Below are positions 56,656 to 62,061 of a DNA stretch of 64,000 bases, piece after piece. Within the stretch, counting starts at the first letter, position 1. The number at the start of each line of letters is the position of its first letter. The notes below the pieces were generated by a model. That model did not search any database, was not told the origin of the DNA, and saw nothing but the letters and a program-made list of their open reading frames with translations. Made by a program: the position numbers and the translations under genes. Source of the DNA: a virus; the IMG/VR virus record IMGVR_UViG_3300001848_000349, positions 481 through 64,480 of that record. One strand, written 5' to 3'.

Positions 56656-56829
56656 TCAGGGCATCTGGCAACTGCCAGGGAGGACACTATTGTAGGTGGC
56701 ACAGCGGGCAGCGGTCTGCTGGTTGACATGCTGTACGGTCTCGGATGCGAACCCGATCGCTGCCGATCCTACAGCAGCGATGGGGGCATAGAAGGCGGCG
56801 CCGAGAATGAGAAGGGCGAGGGTCTTCAT
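56656..56829 (-). CDS. Small early protein with an N-terminal hydrophobic helix (57 aa), not in the ORF track
   Basis: MKTLALLILGAAFYAPIAAVGSAAIGFASETVQHVNQQTAARCATYNSVLPGSCQMP. Confidence 0.7.
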   Translation of the reverse strand: MKTLALLILGAAFYAPIAAVGSAAIGFASETVQHVNQQTAARCATYNSVLPGSCQMP

Positions 56830-56873
56830 GGGGTCGTTTGAACTGAGGTTAGTCTACAGGGTGGGGTGAGCGA

Positions 56874-57032
56874 TCAACGCTCGAACTGTGCCAGACTGCT
56901 AGGTGCCACATGGGCGGGAGAACCACAGGAGAGGTAGAAGGCGACCATGCGTTCTGCCTCGTCAAGGGTCTTGAACCACTGGGAGTGCCAGTCGTTGCTG
57001 TAGGGGCGTTGGTAGCGAACTTCGATTCTCAT
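56874..57032 (-). CDS. Small early protein (52 aa), not in the ORF track
   Basis: MRIEVRYQRPYSNDWHSQWFKTLDEAERMVAFYLSCGSPAHVAPSSLAQFER. Confidence 0.75.
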   Translation of the reverse strand: MRIEVRYQRPYSNDWHSQWFKTLDEAERMVAFYLSCGSPAHVAPSSLAQFER

Positions 57033-57077
57033 GGGGTTGGTTGGTTGATGCTGTTAGTCTACAGGGTCAGGATGGGG

Positions 57078-57302
57078 TCAGCGTGCCAGCAGGTGACGGT
57101 TAGCGAATTGTCCCAGGGAGGCACCTGGCATCATCAGGCGGAGCATGTCACGACGGCGGCAATCATGGGCGCTGATGCTGCCGCTGTGCCATTGTACGAT
57201 AGCACGACGGGTCAAGGGCGACAGGATGATCCGTTGGCAAGCGGTGCTGCCACGTTCAACGTTGATGAACACGGGCAGGCGATCGATGGCGAAGTTGATC
57301 AT
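57078..57302 (-). CDS. Small early protein (74 aa)
   Basis: ORF track; ATG directly after a repeat leader. Confidence 0.7.
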   Translation of the reverse strand: MINFAIDRLPVFINVERGSTACQRIILSPLTRRAIVQWHSGSISAHDCRRRDMLRLMMPGASLGQFANRHLLAR

Positions 57303-57382
57303 GGTTGGGTTTGAACTGAGGTTAGTCTACAGGGTCAGGATGGGAGGAAGGGGGGCAGCGTGTGCCACCCCCTCAACTGGCA

Positions 57383-57808
57383 TCAGCAGTCTCGAAAGAT
57401 TGCCACCTCACGGTAGGACTTCTCACAAGCGGTGAAATCGTAGCGGAGGGTGCTATCGTAGGTTGCTTGCCAATCTACAACCAAAGCGACGGGCACATCG
57501 TACAGATCGCTGTAGAATTGCTCAGCGAAGTCTGCCTCGGATTCGTACCAACCAACGAAGCGATCATCACACCCTTCGATGTTATCAATGCCATCCTCAG
57601 CAGCGAGGGCATCAACAGCATCGTATCCGATCACTTCACCACAACGAACGTACTCTTCGTAGTTATCAACGAACATACGCTCGTTGTAGTTATCGATGAA
57701 CTCCAGAATGTCATCGATAGCGTAGTTGTCATCGATCAACTCTTCGATTTTCTCAACAGTGCTAGCGGCGAGCACTTCTTTGTAGTTAGCGGTCAAGGTG
57801 ACGGTCAT
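57383..57808 (-). CDS. ardA: ArdA-like anti-restriction (DNA-mimic) protein (141 aa)
   Basis: 35 D/E versus 9 K/R; C-terminal DRFVGWYESEADFAEQFY..LYDVP..LVVDWQATY..L.YDF matches my recollection of the ArdA Y.G.Y.SEEDFA.E...IP..L..YIDWE pattern; own TTGACT-17-TATTGT promoter. Confidence 0.7.
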   Translation of the reverse strand: MTVTLTANYKEVLAASTVEKIEELIDDNYAIDDILEFIDNYNERMFVDNYEEYVRCGEVIGYDAVDALAAEDGIDNIEGCDDRFVGWYESEADFAEQFYSDLYDVPVALVVDWQATYDSTLRYDFTACEKSYREVAIFRDC

Positions 57809-57829
57809 TGGTTTGTTTGAACTGAAGGA

Positions 57830-57858
57830 ACAATAGAACGGATGGAGGGGAGAGTCAA
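57830..57858 (-). promoter_or_regulatory. Sigma70-type promoter TTGACT-17-TATTGT for the ardA-like gene
   Basis: agtcaa at 57853-57858 and acaata at 57830-57835. Confidence 0.75.
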
Positions 57859-57883
57859 GGGGGTGGGGACACCCCCTCAGGTG

Positions 57884-58045
57884 TCACATGCCGTTGGTGT
57901 ACTCCCCGATGATCATGCCATTCTGGCGGACCTGAGCGTATCCGAACTCTTCGGACAGGTCCAGGCACAGATCCCATGCCCGATCCTCATCACAGGTGGT
58001 GTTCTCCCAGGGAGCGGAGGGGCAGATCACGTCGTAGCGGTTCAT
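57884..58045 (-). CDS. Small acidic early protein (53 aa)
   Basis: MNRYDVICPSAPWENTTCDEDRAWDLCLDLSEEFGYAQVRQNGMIIGEYTNGM; ATG lies downstream of the promoter at 58071-58128. Confidence 0.7.
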   Translation of the reverse strand: MNRYDVICPSAPWENTTCDEDRAWDLCLDLSEEFGYAQVRQNGMIIGEYTNGM

Positions 58046-58218
58046 TCGTTGTTTGGTTGACTGTCCCCATAGTATGGCAGCAGATCGGGGGCAATGGTCG
58101 GTTTGGTGGGCACTGTGAGAAGTGGCACAGCCCCCATAGCAAAGCGCCCCCAAGGCGACTAACCTAGAGGGCGGGAGGGGAGGGAAGGGGCAGCGACGCG
58201 GCCGCCCAGTTTGTATAA

Positions 58219-58401
58219 CTAACTCAACAGATCGGGATAGTAAGATTCAACCTCAGAAATCAGTTCCTCATCAGTATAGCTGGTGAGATTTTCTTCCATC
58301 TGGTCACCAACAATACGGAGCAGATCTTTGGTGCTCATGTTATCAAGCAAACGGTCGATGTATGCTTCAACGAGTGCTTGACGATCGAAAGTGTTGTTCA
58401 T
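58219..58401 (-). CDS. Small acidic hypothetical protein (60 aa)
   Basis: ORF track. Confidence 0.7.
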   Translation of the reverse strand: MNNTFDRQALVEAYIDRLLDNMSTKDLLRIVGDQMEENLTSYTDEELISEVESYYPDLLS

Positions 58402-58409
58402 GGTTTGTA

Positions 58410-58577
58410 TCAGTTGGAGGGGAAGTTACGGCAGACAGCATCACACAGGACACGAACTAAGTCATCGAATTGTTCCTGTGAGTTGGGGAAATGTTCACAA
58501 AAGAACTCATCACAGATGGCATCAATGTCCTCCATCAGTTGTTCCCTGGCAGTCAACATCTCAAGTTTGGTGTTCAT
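58410..58577 (-). CDS. Small acidic hypothetical protein (55 aa), not in the ORF track
   Basis: MNTKLEMLTAREQLMEDIDAICDEFFCEHFPNSQEQFDDLVRVLCDAVCRNFPSN; ATGA-coupled to the upstream gene. Confidence 0.7.
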   Translation of the reverse strand: MNTKLEMLTAREQLMEDIDAICDEFFCEHFPNSQEQFDDLVRVLCDAVCRNFPSN

Positions 58578-58702
58578 TTCCGAAGGGGAGAATTGTAGTA
58601 GCGAGTGAAAGCAGTTACAATGATAATGGCGGTTGAGATAACACCAACCAAACCAAGAAAGGTAACAGCGTCACCAGTGAAAGTGTAAGTGTCAGGTGTC
58701 AT
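58574..58702 (-). CDS. Single-pass membrane peptide (42 aa), not in the ORF track
   Basis: MTPDTYTFTGDAVTFLGLVGVISTAIIIVTAFTRYYNSPLRK; ATGA overlaps at both ends. Confidence 0.7.
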   Translation of the reverse strand: MTPDTYTFTGDAVTFLGLVGVISTAIIIVTAFTRYYNSPLRK

Positions 58703-58836
58703 TTTTTGTTTTGGTTACGATAACGATAAGAGGCAGAAGGATCAGGGTCATACATACCCCCACCCATCCGATCTTCAAGATAAAACATGATGCCAAAGGT
58801 GGAGAGAATCACTCCCCCAAGAATAGCAGTGATCAT
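58699..58836 (-). CDS. Small membrane-anchored peptide (45 aa), not in the ORF track
   Basis: MITAILGGVILSTFGIMFYLEDRMGGGMYDPDPSASYRYRNQNKK; ATGA overlaps. Confidence 0.6.
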   Translation of the reverse strand: MITAILGGVILSTFGIMFYLEDRMGGGMYDPDPSASYRYRNQNKK

Positions 58837-58949
58837 TGATCTTCCTCAGGTTGGTTGAGTTCCATGTCGTGCCAGCATTCTGCTAACGGATGCCCCCAAT
58901 CTTCGATGTCAAAGATCTCACCAGGCATGTCTTGAATCTCTTCCCACAT
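58833..58949 (-). CDS. Small acidic peptide (38 aa), not in the ORF track
   Basis: MWEEIQDMPGEIFDIEDWGHPLAECWHDMELNQPEEDQ; first gene after the promoter at 58975-59032. Confidence 0.65.
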   Translation of the reverse strand: MWEEIQDMPGEIFDIEDWGHPLAECWHDMELNQPEEDQ

Positions 58950-59039
58950 AATGTGTTTTTGTGTTGACTCTGTTAGTATGGCAGCAACAGGTGCCCAGTG
59001 GTTGAAATAGTGGACACCTGTTGAACTGGCACACTGATA

Positions 59040-59216
59040 TCAGAATTCGATCGGATTCAGTGTAGGTTGAGCAGACTTCATTTGTTCATACATTTCAGTC
59101 ATCAGTTGCATATGCTGATCGACAGGATTTGTATCACTGAAACCATCAAGAACTGCTAGCAGTTCGTTACCATTGGTGGCACGATTGAGCAGCGAAAGCA
59201 TAACAGATTTGGTCAT
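59040..59216 (-). CDS. Hypothetical protein (about 58 aa)
   Basis: ORF track frame; likely start MTKSVMLSLL. Confidence 0.65.
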   Translation of the reverse strand: MTKSVMLSLLNRATNGNELLAVLDGFSDTNPVDQHMQLMTEMYEQMKSAQPTLNPIEF

Positions 59217-59243
59217 AGTTAGATAGAACAAAGGAACAAAGAA

Positions 59244-59363
59244 TCAGTCTTGAATAGTATAGTCTAAGTCGTAACTATAGACTATACTATTATCTTCAAT
59301 CTCTATATCTTCATATAGATCTTGATCTATAATCTCTTCTAATACATACTCTTCAAAAGTCAT
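59244..59363 (-). CDS. Extremely acidic peptide (39 aa), not in the ORF track
   Basis: MTFEEYVLEEIIDQDLYEDIEIEDNSIVYSYDLDYTIQD; 14 D/E, no K/R. Confidence 0.5.
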   Translation of the reverse strand: MTFEEYVLEEIIDQDLYEDIEIEDNSIVYSYDLDYTIQD

Positions 59364-59408
59364 AGTTTGTAAAAAGTAAAGATTAACAAATAATATTTAA
59401 TTTTTAGT

Positions 59409-59484
59409 TTTTAAGATTTTGATAAATCTTAAAATATAAGAAAATCCCACTTTGTTGAAATTTGTATATTCAACAAAAGTGGGA
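59409..59484 (-). terminator. Two adjacent stem-loops; the larger one is terminator-like
   Basis: TCCCACTTTGTTGAA/TTCAACAAAAGTGGGA (59445-59484) followed by TTTT on the minus strand; 11-bp TTTTAAGATTT/AAATCTTAAAA (59409-59434). Confidence 0.65.
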
Positions 59485-59511
59485 ATGTAAGGCATCGTGT
59501 ATGCTGCCAAT

Positions 59512-59838
59512 TCAAGCAAGTCTCATAGAAGAACGGAAAGGCACAGTCTGAAGACCACTAGGGGTGTTTAAAGTGATAAACCATTCCCATTTCTTCTGGA
59601 AGATATGCTCACCAGGAGCACCATGCTCACGAAGAATAGCATTGAGACGAGATTTGGTGGTGTTGGATTGCCAACCACCATCAAACAGTTTCAACCAAGT
59701 GTCACCAACCTCAGCAATCAAATTGCCATGAAGGCGAACTTGAGACACTCCACCAATATTGGTGACAGAAGTGTTAGTCAAACTCCAATCTTTGCTGTCA
59801 CGAATGGCAGCATTCATCAGACGTTCGATTTTTCTCAT
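59512..59838 (-). CDS. Phage hypothetical protein (108 aa)
   Basis: ORF track; LHGNLIA...DGGWQSNTTKSRLNAIL motif, which I recall as common in phages. Confidence 0.8.
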   Translation of the reverse strand: MRKIERLMNAAIRDSKDWSLTNTSVTNIGGVSQVRLHGNLIAEVGDTWLKLFDGGWQSNTTKSRLNAILREHGAPGEHIFQKKWEWFITLNTPSGLQTVPFRSSMRLA

Positions 59839-59864
59839 GGGGTGAATCCCTCAGGAACAAATGT

Positions 59865-59893
59865 AGTATGGCAGGAATGGGGGGCATTGTCAA
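59865..59893 (-). promoter_or_regulatory. Sigma70-type promoter TTGACA-17-(TGC)CATACT
   Basis: tgtcaa at 59888-59893 and agtatg at 59865-59870. Confidence 0.8.
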
Positions 59894-59918
59894 CCCCCTG
59901 ATTGATTAGTGTTACTTA

Positions 59919-60086
59919 TCAGACATCGTAGCACAGATAAGTTTTCATTTCATCTGTATACATGTCACGTTCGTTATCAGTCAGCCAGGACAATCCTGCC
60001 ATCATGTTAAAAAAATCAACTTGCCAATTGTTCAGGGTCATGATATCATCGTGGTTACGAATGATATCACTGTTGAAGTAATTCAT
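59919..60086 (-). CDS. Small hypothetical protein (55 aa), not in the ORF track
   Basis: MNYFNSDIIRNHDDIMTLNNWQVDFFNMMAGLSWLTDNERDMYTDEMKTYLCYDV; follows the promoter at 60112-60169. Confidence 0.6.
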   Translation of the reverse strand: MNYFNSDIIRNHDDIMTLNNWQVDFFNMMAGLSWLTDNERDMYTDEMKTYLCYDV

Positions 60087-60182
60087 TGAATGAATTCCTG
60101 ACGACTCATGTACAATACCATCACCAGACCACTCTACAAGGTCTTCTATGCCACTTTAAATACTGTCACAGGGTCTTACCAT

Positions 60183-60347
60183 TCAGTAGTCGATATACGT
60201 ATCATCCTGGTCCTTAAACTTTGCTTGACGTTTACTACGTGCTGAGTAACGTTTAGCATTTTGTACTTCATAACCATAATCTTCATAATCATCTTCAAAG
60301 TTCACTTCTTTGAAGGATTCGGTATACTTTTTGTTGATTTTAGACAT
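60183..60347 (-). CDS. Small charged hypothetical protein (54 aa), not in the ORF track
   Basis: MSKINKKYTESFKEVNFEDDYEDYGYEVQNAKRYSARSKRQAKFKDQDDTYIDY. Confidence 0.65.
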   Translation of the reverse strand: MSKINKKYTESFKEVNFEDDYEDYGYEVQNAKRYSARSKRQAKFKDQDDTYIDY

Positions 60348-60379
60348 TTTTGAAAGAAATCAGTAACAATTGTGAAGAA

Positions 60380-60643
60380 TTATTGAACATTCGTATTTAT
60401 TTGTTGAATATTCTCACTTTTAATTGAAGAAGTGATGAATTTACCAACACTTTCACTGTTTTTGATAGTATTTTGAAGGTTTTCTTCGAAATTCTTATCA
60501 ATTATAGTGTAATTATATTCTTTATCACTAGAATTGAAGACTACAGTACAAATGTCTTCAGTAATACTCACTGATTTAATAGCTGTACTATTTAAATCTT
60601 GATATACTACAGTTTGAGATTCTTTGACAATCATTGAAATCAT
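60380..60643 (-). CDS. KTSC-like domain protein (87 aa)
   Basis: NSTAIKSVS...TVVFNS...YNY...SESVGKFI resembles the KTSC SSAI.SVGY...L.V.F...Y.Y...S.G.Y/F pattern. Confidence 0.5.
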   Translation of the reverse strand: MISMIVKESQTVVYQDLNSTAIKSVSITEDICTVVFNSSDKEYNYTIIDKNFEENLQNTIKNSESVGKFITSSIKSENIQQINTNVQ

Positions 60644-60787
60644 TAAAATTTAAAAATTGAGTTTTTTGAATTTCTTAAAAAACTTAAAAAGTGAGTTTTT
60701 TAAGATTTTGAGATTCTGTGGAAAACTATTTTTCCACAAGTCTTGAAAACCTGTGGAAAACTCGAAATCCCTCAACCTCATGAACAT

Positions 60788-60816
60788 AGTATAGGGCATT
60801 TGGAGGGGTCTGTCAA
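60788..60816 (-). promoter_or_regulatory. Consensus sigma70 promoter TTGACA-17-TATACT (leftward)
   Basis: tgtcaa at 60811-60816 and agtata at 60788-60793. Confidence 0.85.
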
Positions 60817-60864
60817 GTGCCTGAGAGGTCCTCTGTGCCACTTTGAGAGGTGTCACAATACCCC

Positions 60865-60893
60865 TTGACATTCGTTCGCTGACGTGCTAAGAC
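60865..60893 (+). promoter_or_regulatory. Rightward promoter TTGACA-17-(TGC)TAAGAC firing into non-coding DNA
   Basis: -35 at 60865-60870, extended -10 at 60885-60893; operator palindrome ends 31 nt before the -10. Confidence 0.65.
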
Positions 60894-61026
60894 AACGACT
60901 CCTCCGTACATTAAGAGACATTACCGTACAATACATCACACTACCTATATTTTTTAACCTATTTTTAATTATAGAGTTTTCCACAGGTTTTTCCACAGGT
61001 AGTTCCGTATCCTGTGGAAAACTATA

Positions 61027-61650
61027 TTATTTCCATCTAGGACCTATAATCCAACCTACGAGAGATTTACGTTGACCTGATTTAATTTTAGTAACTCTAT
61101 GTTTAGTTCTTGAGTCAAAGATAATAAGAGAACCAAGATCTAGGTTAGCAGTTGTCAATTGATCATTTGGTGGAAGAAGTTGTAGATGTCCACCTGTGTA
61201 AGTATTAGGATCAGATAATTGTAAGGAGAAGGATAATTTTCTTGTATATTCTGCTTTAGGAGTAATATAGTCTGATAGGTTAGTTTCTCTCCAAGCAGGA
61301 TATTTTTTATTAGCATAAAGTTCTGTTAGTCCAGAGTCTGTATGCCAACCATAATGATCACCTTGATTGTAGACAGTATATTGCATTTGTCCACCATCTA
61401 GGTTATTGATATCATACTTAAAATTAAGATCATTAGCGAGTCTGATGTAGTAATCAACAAAAGCTGCTATCCAATTTTCTTGTTGAATCCATGCTACTTG
61501 AGTTGAGCGTCTATCTTGTTCAATTGATGGTTGACTACGAAGAATACTAGCAGGTTTGAGGTATGCATCATATTGTTCAAGATGTTGTATCATAATGTTA
61601 ACAACATCTTGAGGTAAATGAGTTTGAATGATGACGTTATTTTCTGCCAT
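61027..61650 (-). CDS. 2OG-Fe(II) oxygenase (prolyl-4-hydroxylase-like, cyanophage type)
   Basis: Y..GDHYGWHTD (HxD), RKLSFSLQL, GG.L.L, HRVTKI..G.RKSLVGW. Confidence 0.9.
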   Translation of the reverse strand: MAENNVIIQTHLPQDVVNIMIQHLEQYDAYLKPASILRSQPSIEQDRRSTQVAWIQQENWIAAFVDYYIRLANDLNFKYDINNLDGGQMQYTVYNQGDHYGWHTDSGLTELYANKKYPAWRETNLSDYITPKAEYTRKLSFSLQLSDPNTYTGGHLQLLPPNDQLTTANLDLGSLIIFDSRTKHRVTKIKSGQRKSLVGWIIGPRWK

Positions 61651-61867
61651 TTTGTTTACGAAGATCTTTGTATTGTTGTTTCAGTTCTCTTTCATTGTAG
61701 AAGAGGATGACTTCATTATCTAGATCACGTAACCATTCTTTGACTTCATCACCTATGGCAATAGCATCATCTTTATTTTTGTTAAGGACACGAAAGAATT
61801 GATCTTGGTATGCTTCTAGGATAGTATCCACTTGATCTGATACTGATAGTTGTTCTTGTTCTGTCAT
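61637..61867 (-). CDS. Hypothetical protein (76 aa)
   Basis: Likely start MTEQEQ at 61867, after the promoter at 61891-61920. Confidence 0.65.
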   Translation of the reverse strand: MTEQEQLSVSDQVDTILEAYQDQFFRVLNKNKDDAIAIGDEVKEWLRDLDNEVILFYNERELKQQYKDLRKQNGRK

Positions 61868-62061
61868 TTGATTTTGGTGTATGGTGGTTGATTGTACACT
61901 GAAACATAGGGTTTTGTCAAGTTTGGGCAGGATTCGTGGAATGTGCCGTTGATGTAACATGCTTTACCTTGTTCGTAGTATTGAATAGGTGGTGGATCAG
62001 GTGGTTGACAGATGAATATACCTTGTAGGCATATATTAATCAGATCAAGTGCTAATCCCAT
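61864..62061 (-). CDS. Hypothetical protein (65 aa), Cys/Pro-rich
   Basis: ORF track; coupled overlaps with neighbours. Confidence 0.5.
   Translation of the reverse strand: MGLALDLINICLQGIFICQPPDPPPIQYYEQGKACYINGTFHESCPNLTKPYVSVYNQPPYTKIK
61891..61920 (-). promoter_or_regulatory. Host-like promoter TTGACA-18-TACAAT without the palindromic operator (possibly middle class)
   Basis: tgtcaa at 61915-61920 and attgta at 61891-61896. Confidence 0.6.

What the first reader, a model, noticed from the sequence alone, without database searches (positions are those of the whole stretch)
60645..61021. Six perfect cyanobacterial DnaA boxes around divergent promoters: a host-like oriC or DnaA sink in a T4-like phage
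Seen in sequence: TTTTCCACA or its complement occurs six times in 305 bp, as two triads (60717-60760 and 60977-61021). Four copies extend to GTTTTCCACAG/CTGTGGAAAAC. The triads flank a back-to-back promoter pair and are bordered by AT-rich, A-tract-rich non-coding DNA (60645-60710, about 60945-60975). Established: TTTTCCACA is the DnaA-box consensus at cyanobacterial oriC, while T4-like phages encode their own replisome and T4 uses R-loop origins, not DnaA. Inference: either an origin that recruits host DnaA for early replication, or a datA-like decoy that titrates host DnaA or ties local transcription to DnaA state.
Basis: partly seen in the sequence, partly recalled or inferred. Interest (0 to 1): 0.85.

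Follow-up and report, generated by a model that had tools for sequence, protein, structure and literature searches.

The report
DnaA boxes flanking cyanophage promoter hub
A T4-like cyanophage carries six perfect binding sites for its host's replication initiator DnaA on both sides of a conserved, single-copy pair of back-to-back early promoters; lab phages such as S-PM2 and Syn9 share this layout, which may mark the still-unmapped replication origin of these abundant aquatic viruses.

Summary
Six exact TTTTCCACA 9-mers lie in 305 bp of one 383-bp intergenic gap; there is only one more in the 71.5-kb contig. The motif is the cyanobacterial DnaA-box consensus, and 12-bp tandem pairs of it sit in real cyanobacterial dnaA-dnaN regions.

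The gap is a conserved, single-copy module of T4-like cyanophages. In order it holds:
- an AT tract;
- a leftward gene promoter;
- one dyad operator;
- an orphan rightward early-class promoter;
- 10-11-bp tandem repeats;
- a second AT tract;
- a swappable cassette of protein-binding sites.

In 30 of 70 modules, including S-PM2, S-CAM3, Sf-FR1 and Syn9, that cassette is made of perfect DnaA boxes. Their orientation varies, so a hairpin alone cannot explain them. Other phages carry unrelated motifs at the same spot, and four Prochlorococcus phages have no cluster.

It is not an oriC copy: there are no DnaA-trios. My best reading (0.42) is a transcription-activated phage origin with host DnaA as an interchangeable accessory. 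DnaA-gated transcription alone is the main rival. A DnaA sink is unlikely.

I found no paper describing this. Within this scan, DnaA-box arrays were noted before in other phage lineages, and the same module in one other cyanophage genome.

The parts
60644..61026 (.). Whole non-coding module between two minus-strand genes. It is single-copy in complete relatives.
   Evidence: ORF list. The core motif occurs once each in S-PM2, S-RSM4 and S-CAM3 and once per contig in 65 viral contigs.
60645..60714 (.). Left AT tract, 84% A+T, with phased A/T runs. It is either the 5' leader of the leftward operon or a candidate unwinding element.
   Evidence: top 0.6% easiest-to-melt 60-bp windows. Homologous AT-rich repeat tracts are present in all relatives.
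60717..60725 (-). DnaA box L1 (exact TTTTCCACA)
60730..60738 (+). DnaA box L2 (exact)
60752..60760 (-). DnaA box L3 (exact). L2 and L3 form a 14-bp inverted repeat.
60788..60816 (-). Leftward promoter P_L: -35 TTGACA at 60816-60811, 17-bp spacer, -10 TATACT at 60793-60788.
   Evidence: Promoter scan, 11 of 12. The -10 is conserved in relatives. In Syn9 a perfect TTGACA-17-TATAAT sits directly before a gene.
60835..60856 (.). Dyad operator GTGCCAC-N8-GTGTCAC, shared by the two divergent promoters.
   Evidence: The same dyad lies 31-33 bp upstream of the -10 of eight other early promoters in the window. It is conserved in relatives.
60865..60896 (+). Orphan rightward early-class promoter P_R: -35 TTGACA at 60865-70, TG at 60885-6, -10 TAAGAC at 60888-93. 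It lies inside the highly conserved block TTGAC-N14-GTGCTAAGMCAAC.
   Evidence: The operator-to--10 spacing of 31 bp matches the phage's other early promoters. The block is found once in each of 65 viral contigs. No ORF of conserved length follows it.
60908..60947 (.). Four degenerate 10-bp units (ACATT/ACAAT/ACACT every 10 bp): an iteron-like spacer of variable copy number.
   Evidence: Across modules the spacer length comes in steps of about 10.5-11 bp, and autocorrelation peaks at 11.
60945..60976 (.). Right AT tract, 84% A+T, corresponding to the conserved ACCTATATTTTTTTAACCATTT-type block.
   Evidence: the ninth easiest-to-melt 30-bp window in 64 kb.
60977..60985 (+). DnaA box R1 (exact)
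60989..60997 (+). DnaA box R2 (exact). It stands 12 bp after R1, and this tandem pair is the conserved heart of the cassette.
   Evidence: A ++ pair at 12 bp occurs 24 times among related modules.
61013..61021 (-). DnaA box R3 (exact, inverted). It can pair with R1 or R2 as a hairpin.

Best explanation
The six 9-mers are genuine binding sites for the host initiator DnaA. They form the two outer arms of a conserved, single-copy, non-coding control module of T4-like cyanophages.

The module holds two early-class promoters placed back to back around one dyad operator. The leftward promoter feeds the next block of early genes. The rightward promoter is an orphan: it points against almost every gene in the genome. 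It transcribes only a string of 10-11-bp repeats, then a short AT tract, and then runs into the DnaA boxes.

I read the module as the phage's origin for the first, origin-dependent rounds of replication. In this reading, transcription from the orphan promoter activates or primes the AT tract, as at T4 oriF/oriG or at lambda's pR/pO. DnaA bound at the flanking boxes then helps in one of three ways: by stopping RNA polymerase at a fixed place, by stabilising the open AT tract, or by coupling firing to the host's DnaA state.

DnaA would be an accessory, not the universal initiator, because related phages carry other site cassettes at the same spot.

Shown: the sites, their enrichment, their conservation independent of orientation, the module's architecture and uniqueness, and the cassette swap. 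Inferred: DnaA binding, promoter activity, and any replication role.
For: 1. The motif is the exact cyanobacterial DnaA-box consensus.
2. It is strongly clustered: 6 of the contig's 7 copies lie in 305 bp.
3. In 70 unique related modules, box density is 2.3 per kb against 0.036 per kb in the rest of the same contigs. In the modules with two or more exact boxes there are 90 exact copies against only 17 one-mismatch copies.
4. There is exactly one cluster per complete genome, always at this locus, in S-PM2, S-CAM3, Sf-FR1 and Syn9.
5. Orientation varies (++-, +++, ++, --) while the 9-mer never does, which points to a protein site rather than an RNA stem.
6. The same 12-bp tandem pairs lie in the dnaA-dnaN regions of 3 of 4 cyanobacterial genomes sampled.
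7. No phage genome tested encodes a DnaA DNA-binding domain, so the binder would be the host protein.
8. Origin-like features are present: single copy; two AT tracts among the easiest-melting DNA; a repeat spacer whose length moves in steps of about 10.5-11 bp; and an orphan promoter of the phage's own early class aimed at non-coding DNA, in genomes where nearly all genes share one strand.
9. Lambda offers a precedent: DnaA boxes lie downstream of pO, and DnaA stimulates the transcriptional activation of ori-lambda.
10. Metatranscriptome contigs show 3-4 times more RNA to the left of the module than to the right, so a promoter inside it is active in nature.
Against: No experiment or marker-frequency data bear on replication. 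GC skew is uninformative because the genes are co-oriented. There are no DnaA-trios, so DnaA-driven unwinding of the oriC type is not expected. Forty of 70 modules lack boxes altogether, and four Prochlorococcus T4-like phages have no cluster, so whatever DnaA does here is dispensable or replaceable. The rightward -10 (TAAGAC/TAAGCC) lacks the usual final T, and no abundant rightward RNA is visible in the metatranscriptome contigs. The AT tracts are easy to melt but are not the unique minimum. The step-wise spacer length could be a by-product of slippage in 11-bp repeats. An earlier prediction for Syn9, cited, placed a single theta origin by other means. I could not read that paper.
Confidence: 0.42

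Rival explanations
1. This is DnaA-gated transcription only. The module is a promoter hub, and the boxes lie 20-120 bp downstream of the two start sites. There, DnaA either blocks RNA polymerase (as a roadblock or insulator, or to limit the antisense RNA) or stimulates it as at lambda pR. Early gene expression is thereby tied to the host's DnaA, replication or light status. There is no role in phage replication.
For: The left boxes sit at about +22 to +65 of P_L and the right boxes at about +77 to +121 of P_R. In other phages the left boxes recur at the same junction, even when the right cassette is of another class. DnaA is a known transcription factor and acts on lambda promoters. In two metatranscriptomes the strongly covered left contig stops at 60667-60682, short of the left boxes. 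The right-hand contigs start at 60944-60981, just past the right boxes.
Against: This reading does not explain the orphan promoter, the helically periodic repeats, or the single-copy status. Contig ends cannot prove RNA ends. Box orientation relative to the promoters is not fixed, whereas DnaA roadblocks described in E. coli depend on orientation (this last point is from my own knowledge, not checked here).
Confidence: 0.28
2. The sites are bound by some other protein, phage-encoded or a different host factor, and the identity with the DnaA box is a coincidence.
For: Alternative cassettes at the same place have their own triads of unrelated motifs, such as ATTGA-N3-TCAAT in S-RSM4, S-B43 and ACG-2014h. 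So the position accepts sites for several binders. Phages with box cassettes and phages with other cassettes infect the same hosts, WH7803 and WH8102.
Against: An exact 9-of-9 match to the host consensus has a chance of about 1 in 130,000 for an arbitrary 9-mer. The same 12-bp tandem layout occurs in host dnaA-dnaN regions. Viral contigs of other lineages mix TTTTCCACA with TTATCCACA in one array, as true DnaA-box arrays do. No DnaA-like DNA-binding domain is encoded by the phages.
Confidence: 0.1
3. The boxes matter only as arms of hairpins. On the right they would form a bidirectional terminator or a 3'-end stabiliser. On the left they would form a leader attenuator.
For: In the window the arms form 11-14-bp stems with z-scores of -2.8 to -4.7. 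The left one is scored terminator-like. Right-hand RNA contigs begin just past the right hairpin. Most arrangements contain a + copy followed by a - copy.
Against: Among modules with right-hand boxes, about a third have no inverted partner (+++ in 5, ++ in at least 2, -- in 2) yet keep perfect boxes. The arms never show compensatory or wobble changes; they are always the same 9-mer. No U-tract follows on the gene strand.
Confidence: 0.07
4. The cluster is a datA-like sink. As the phage genome multiplies, its high-affinity boxes soak up host DnaA and shut off host initiation.
For: All boxes are perfect, high-affinity consensus sites, and copy number rises during infection (general knowledge).
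Against: Three to six sites per genome is a small sink. The fixed position inside a promoter and repeat module, the 12-bp pairing, and the replacement by other motifs in many phages are not what a sink needs. T4-like cyanophages are thought to degrade or silence host DNA anyway (general knowledge).
Confidence: 0.04

Closest known systems
[quoted passage not shown]
   Same: A phage with its own initiation machinery still carries host DnaA boxes downstream of two promoters next to its origin. One of those promoters makes a short non-coding RNA.
   Different: In lambda the boxes are weak, the promoters converge on the origin, and the origin's iterons bind the phage O protein. Here the boxes are perfect, the promoters diverge, no initiator protein is known, and the phage is a T4-like virus.
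T4 oriF (uvsY) and oriG (gene 34) R-loop origins
   Same: Same phage family. Both are non-coding elements made of a promoter plus a downstream easily melted tract whose transcript could prime DNA synthesis. T4 facts are from my own knowledge.
   Different: T4 uses MotA-dependent middle promoters, has several origins, and has no DnaA boxes. R-loop formation was not tested here.
Bacterial oriC basal unwinding system (tandem DnaA boxes + DnaA-trios + AT-rich tract; Pelliciari et al. 2021, PMC8287927)
   Same: Tandem perfect DnaA boxes lie next to AT-rich DNA. The same 12-bp pairs occur in cyanobacterial dnaA-dnaN regions.
   Different: There are no DnaA-trios at any of the six boxes. The right AT tract lies on the 5' side of the tandem pair rather than the 3' side. 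S. elongatus oriC has abutting boxes with a 9-bp period.
Iteron-type theta origins of plasmids and P1 oriR (DnaA boxes + AT-rich tract + iterons + promoter)
   Same: The same four ingredients appear in the same kind of order, and the element is single-copy. Plasmid facts are from my own knowledge.
   Different: The repeats here are only 10-11 bp long, degenerate, and differ in sequence between phages. No Rep gene is evident beside them.
E. coli datA
   Same: A cluster of high-affinity DnaA boxes outside oriC.
   Different: datA works with IHF and promotes ATP hydrolysis on DnaA. Nothing of that kind can be read here, and the phage cluster is embedded in promoters.

Membership tests
DnaA box (cyanobacterial consensus TTTTCCACA) | Exact match to the 9-mer consensus of the host group | tested here: met
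   There are six exact copies. The consensus 3'-AAAAGGTGT-5' is the one used for S. elongatus, WH8102, CC9311 and Prochlorococcus in the DoriC-based tables of PMC8287927.
DnaA box (cyanobacterial consensus TTTTCCACA) | Clustering beyond chance, and conservation of the motif itself in relatives | tested here: met
   7 copies against 1.2 expected. Density is 65-fold higher inside 70 related modules than outside them, in any orientation. There is one cluster per genome in S-PM2, S-CAM3, Sf-FR1 and Syn9.
DnaA box (cyanobacterial consensus TTTTCCACA) | Physical binding by DnaA | not testable with these tools
   Needs EMSA, footprinting or ChIP with Synechococcus DnaA.
oriC basal unwinding system (BUS) | Tandem DnaA boxes | tested here: met
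   R1 and R2 are direct repeats with a 12-bp period.
oriC basal unwinding system (BUS) | At least three DnaA-trios (3'-NAN-5', consensus GAT) within 16 bp on the 3' side of a box | tested here: not met
   The longest run at any of the six boxes is 2. Random positions in the window typically give 2-3. Criterion taken.
oriC basal unwinding system (BUS) | AT-rich unwinding tract beyond the trios | tested here: inconclusive
   AT tracts are present. The right one lies on the 5' side of the tandem pair. The left one adjoins box L1 on the correct side, but without trios.
T4-type R-loop origin | A promoter firing into a non-coding, easily melted tract | tested here: inconclusive
   P_R has the same operator, spacing and -10 class as eight other early promoters and is followed by repeats and an AT tract. 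No start site has been mapped, and metatranscriptome contigs show no abundant rightward RNA.
T4-type R-loop origin | A persistent RNA-DNA hybrid used as primer | not testable with these tools
   Needs DRIP, RNA-DNA junction mapping or in-vitro replication.
Iteron-type theta origin | Tandem direct repeats with a period near the helical repeat | tested here: met
   There are four 10-bp units in the window. Autocorrelation peaks at 11 bp. Spacer lengths cluster at about 27, 37, 48, 58, 68 and 81 bp; the Rayleigh R is 0.73-0.77.
Iteron-type theta origin | A cognate initiator gene next to the iterons | not tested
   The flanking genes are an unannotated 87-aa ORF (its positional counterpart in Sf-FR1 is annotated KTSC domain-containing) and a 2OG-Fe(II) oxygenase. 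No initiator is evident, and I did not search systematically.
Rho-independent terminator | GC-rich hairpin followed by a U-tract, conserved as a structure | tested here: not met
   Hairpins exist in the window. But 5 related modules have three direct boxes and several have only two, so no stem can form. The arms show no compensatory change.
datA-like DnaA titration locus | A high-affinity box cluster together with IHF-dependent DnaA-ATP hydrolysis | not testable with these tools
   Only the box cluster can be read from the sequence.

The most novel reading that the evidence does not exclude
The conserved module is the long-sought primary replication origin of T4-like cyanophages. It would be an origin of mixed design: an orphan early promoter, 10-11-bp iteron-like repeats and an AT tract. 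Its accessory factor would be chosen by a swappable site cassette. In a large share of Synechococcus phages, including S-PM2 and Syn9, that factor would be the host initiator DnaA. A lytic phage with a complete replisome of its own would then still enlist, or listen to, the host's initiator.
Probability: 0.35. Interest if true: 0.85.

Novelty: new variant of a known kind. Interest (0 to 1): 0.62.

Why it matters
T4-like cyanophages are among the most abundant viruses of the ocean's main primary producers. How they start replication has never been mapped; a 2010 review notes only a predicted single theta origin in Syn9.

This finding gives a concrete candidate. It is short, single-copy, and present in cultured phages that can be worked with in the laboratory (S-PM2, Syn9, S-CAM3). 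It carries an obvious handle, the perfect host DnaA boxes, and natural controls, the relatives with other cassettes at the same spot.

If DnaA acts here, it links phage development to the host's replication state. Cyanobacterial replication is said to depend on light (my own knowledge, not checked here), which could bear on the light dependence of cyanophage infection.

The result also adds T4-like phages to the growing list of phage lineages that carry DnaA-box arrays.

Tried and rejected
- **Rfam search of 59500-62000:** only chance-level hits, so no known RNA family.
- **tRNA search:** none in the window region or at the S-PM2 locus. The tRNA features lying over the S-PM2 boxes in AJ630128 are therefore misplaced annotation.
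- **Cumulative GC skew in S-PM2, S-RSM4, Syn9, S-CAM3 and the contig:** monotonic, because nearly all genes share one strand. It cannot locate an origin.
- **First viral-contig scan for the core motif:** I used the wrong spacer and found nothing. It was repeated correctly.
- **BUS/oriC copy:** rejected, no trios.
- **Phage-encoded DnaA domain IV:** none found.
- **Doron et al. 2016 (Syn9 transcriptome):** not held in the library.
- **Metatranscriptome runs:** available only as contigs, so RNA ends, strand and level could not be established.
- **BLAST of a low-GC box-bearing module (L148) against cultured phages:** no match.
- **A 45-codon frame from 60787 across the left boxes:** rejected as a gene. 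The conserved leader bases fall in a different frame, and a stop follows after four codons, in Sf-FR1 (read by eye).
- **Literature searches:** combining DnaA box(es) with cyanophage or T4-like, and cyanophage or Syn9 with origin of replication, found nothing relevant.

Full report
**Observation**

The window holds seven exact copies of TTTTCCACA, counting both strands. Six lie between 60717 and 61021. Dinucleotide-preserving shuffles give 1.21 copies on average and never reach seven. The whole 71.5-kb viral contig also has only these seven.

The six copies form two triads. The left triad is at 60717(-), 60730(+) and 60752(-). The right triad is at 60977(+), 60989(+) and 61013(-).

All six lie in the 383-bp gap between two minus-strand genes. 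One is an 87-aa ORF with no Pfam match. The other is a 2OG-Fe(II) oxygenase. The outer tracts 60645-60714 and 60945-60976 are 84% A+T, against 52% in the core.

The phage is a T4-like cyanomyovirus. Every DNA relative is a Synechococcus phage of the Kyanoviridae, and a neighbouring gene matches the Kyano_Gp96 family. CheckV rates the record 37% complete.

**What the gap is**

Aligning the syntenic gaps of S-PM2, S-RSM4, S-CAM3, Sf-FR1, ACG-2014h, Sf-CH1b and S-B43 shows a shared module. A pattern taken from its most conserved block, TTGAC-N14-GTGCTAAGMCAAC, found 65 viral contigs with one copy each. The block occurs once per complete genome in S-PM2, S-RSM4 and S-CAM3.

Read left to right on the window's + strand, the module contains:
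- an AT-rich tract of short A/T-run repeats;
- a leftward promoter, TTGACA-17-TATACT, matching 11 of 12 consensus positions;
- a dyad, GTGCCAC-N8-GTGTCAC;
- a rightward promoter, TTGACA-17-TAAGAC with a TG extension;
- a spacer of short tandem repeats;
- a conserved AT block of the type ACCTATATTTTTTTAACCATTT;
- a cassette of repeated short motifs.

I checked this. In eight leftward gene promoters the dyad ends 31-33 bp before the -10. In the module that spacing (31 bp) holds for the rightward promoter, not the leftward one. In Sf-FR1 and S-CAM3 the two -35 hexamers sit symmetrically 5-7 bp from the dyad.

Nearly all genes in these genomes share one strand. The rightward promoter is therefore an orphan aimed at non-coding DNA.

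**The boxes are a cassette**

Among 70 non-identical modules, 30 carry at least one exact box and 27 carry two or more. Box density is 2.3 per kb inside the modules and 0.036 per kb in the rest of the same contigs. In the box-bearing modules there are 90 exact copies against only 17 one-mismatch copies.

The heart of the right-hand cassette is a direct pair with a 12-bp period, seen 24 times. The third copy may be direct (+++ in 5 modules), inverted at 13-44 bp (++-), or absent. In two modules the pair is flipped (--).

Left-hand boxes also recur in other contigs. They usually appear as a + copy followed by a - copy at the junction between the AT tract and the core. Some of these contigs have a different cassette on the right.

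Complete genomes have exactly one cluster, always here:
- S-PM2: 8 boxes, 3 clustered.
- S-CAM3: 13 boxes, 3 clustered.
- Sf-FR1: 7 boxes, 3 clustered, all direct.
- Syn9: 4 boxes, 2 clustered, plus one near-box.

S-RSM4, S-B43 and ACG-2014h have instead a triad of ATTGA-N3-TCAAT-type palindromes. Sf-CH1b has a third motif. Two contigs, L174 and L177, are about 85-90% identical (judged by eye from the alignment) through the promoters, the spacer and the sequence beyond the cassette. They differ only in the 35-40 bp cassette, which is a DnaA-box pair in one and the palindrome in the other. P-SSM2, P-SSM4, P-HM1 and P-HM2 have only scattered single boxes.

**Are they DnaA sites?**

The 9-mer is the consensus used for cyanobacterial origins, including WH8102, CC9311 and Prochlorococcus. 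S. elongatus DnaA needs such boxes to unwind its cognate origin scaffold in vitro.

A scan of bacterial genomes for the 12-bp tandem pair returned many lineages. Of the four cyanobacterial hits I examined, three lie between or beside dnaA and dnaN. Their layouts, an inverted copy plus a tandem pair around AT-rich DNA, resemble the phage triads.

The same scan of viral contigs returned more than 116 contigs of widely differing GC content. Some mix TTTTCCACA with TTATCCACA in one array, as genuine DnaA-box arrays do.

No DnaA DNA-binding domain is encoded in this contig or in S-PM2, S-CAM3, Sf-FR1, Syn9 or S-RSM4.

A hairpin-only reading fails. About a third of box cassettes cannot form a stem, and the arms never co-vary. 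In the window itself, however, the hairpins are strong. I put the chance that these are functional DnaA sites at about 0.8.

**Not an oriC copy**

The basal unwinding system of oriC needs at least three DnaA-trios within 16 bp on the 3' side of a box. None of the six boxes has more than two, which is no better than random positions. The host S. elongatus pair abuts with a 9-bp period and is followed by GAT repeats. The phage pair has a 12-bp period, and the AT tract lies on its 5' side.

**Origin-like features of the module**

Besides being unique and non-coding, the module has a spacer between the rightward promoter and the AT block whose length comes in steps: about 27, 37, 48, 58, 68, 81 and 102 bp. 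The Rayleigh R is 0.73-0.77 at periods of 10.5-11 bp, and 0.61-0.72 when each distinct length is counted once. Sequence autocorrelation peaks at 11 bp. The window has four 10-bp units.

This is a DNA-level periodicity, close to one helical turn. Slippage of 11-bp units could produce it without any selection.

The AT tracts rank among the easiest-melting DNA of the window: the ninth best 30-bp window, and the top 0.6% at 60 bp. They are not the single minimum.

DnaA boxes, an AT tract, short tandem repeats and a promoter are the ingredients of iteron-type origins. A promoter firing into an AT tract is the design of T4 oriF/oriG. Both statements rest on my own knowledge. In lambda, DnaA boxes lie downstream of pO, and DnaA stimulates the pR transcription that activates the origin. 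GC skew cannot help here.

**RNA in nature**

Four metatranscriptome runs from one study hold the stretch, as contigs only.

In two runs a contig of depth about 36 covers the leftward genes and stops at 60667 or 60682. Contigs of depth 2.5-13 cover the upstream genes and begin at 60944 or 60981. The core is uncovered. A third run reaches 60896, the last base of the conserved block, and continues into adapter sequence. The fourth covers everything.

This fits a promoter inside the module and little stable RNA across the core. Contigs cannot fix RNA ends or strand, so I use this only as a hint.

**Verdict**

The DnaA-box reading is well supported, but 'host-like oriC' is not.

My best explanation (0.42) is that the module is a transcription-activated phage origin with host DnaA as an exchangeable accessory. 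The rivals are:
- DnaA-gated transcription without a replication role (0.28);
- a different binder (0.10);
- hairpins only (0.07);
- a DnaA sink (0.04).

I found no paper that links DnaA boxes to cyanophages or to T4-like phages. A 2010 review notes only a predicted single theta origin in Syn9. Within this scan, DnaA-box arrays have been noted in several other phage lineages. The same divergent-promoter module with boxes was noted in one other cyanophage genome.

I class the finding as a new variant of a known kind. It is directly testable in S-PM2 and Syn9.

Noticed in passing
L002:1590-1690 (S-RSM4); also L007 and L005, and many viral contigs such as L124-L186: At the place where this phage has DnaA boxes, S-RSM4, S-B43, ACG-2014h and many uncultured relatives carry three copies of a palindrome of the type ATTGA-N3-TCAAT. 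I could not name its binder. A third cassette type (TTCACCGAGGGGGAGAG...GTTCAAAAACC) occurs in Sf-CH1b and others.
   Followed up: partly
L174 vs L177 (alignment); also L002:1625-1660: A conserved block of the type CCNTTGSTATSACTGRCGCGGA follows the cassette in many modules of all cassette classes. It is absent from the window, and its role is unknown.
   Followed up: no
window 60908-60947 and the homologous spacers in 59 modules: The spacer after the rightward promoter is built of 10-11-bp units whose copy number varies between phages. One contig (L128) has an expansion to about 157 bp.
   Followed up: yes
L023, L047, L065, L097, L111 (viral contigs, GC 0.55-0.58): An unrelated family of high-GC viral contigs carries arrays of six or more DnaA boxes near a contig end. 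The arrays use the same GGG/GGT-spaced 12-bp pairs and are sometimes mixed with TTATCCACA. They look like another phage lineage with DnaA-box arrays.
   Followed up: no
window 60896: In one metatranscriptome run a contig ends exactly at the last base of the conserved block GTGCTAAGACAAC and runs on into Illumina adapter. This may mark a natural RNA end, or it may be an artefact.
   Followed up: no
L001:1464-1620 (AJ630128.1 19177-19333): The S-PM2 GenBank record annotates tRNA-Leu and tRNA-Asn, and other tRNAs inside CDSs, over this region. ARAGORN finds no tRNA anywhere in the 3-kb locus, so these features appear to be misplaced coordinates.
   Followed up: yes
window 56681-60148: Eight leftward early promoters share the dyad GTGNCAC-N8-GTGNCAC 31-33 bp upstream of a TAGACT/TATTGT-type -10. 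Four of them also share a near-identical leader (aacctcagttcaaac). This is a repeated early-promoter cassette reminiscent of the promoter-stem-loop cassettes of T4-type phages.
   Followed up: partly
window 60380-60643 (-): The first gene downstream of the leftward promoter has no Pfam match here. Its positional counterpart is annotated as a KTSC-domain protein in Sf-FR1 and as T4-GC 805 in S-PM2 and ACG-2014h, so the module and this gene travel together.
   Followed up: no
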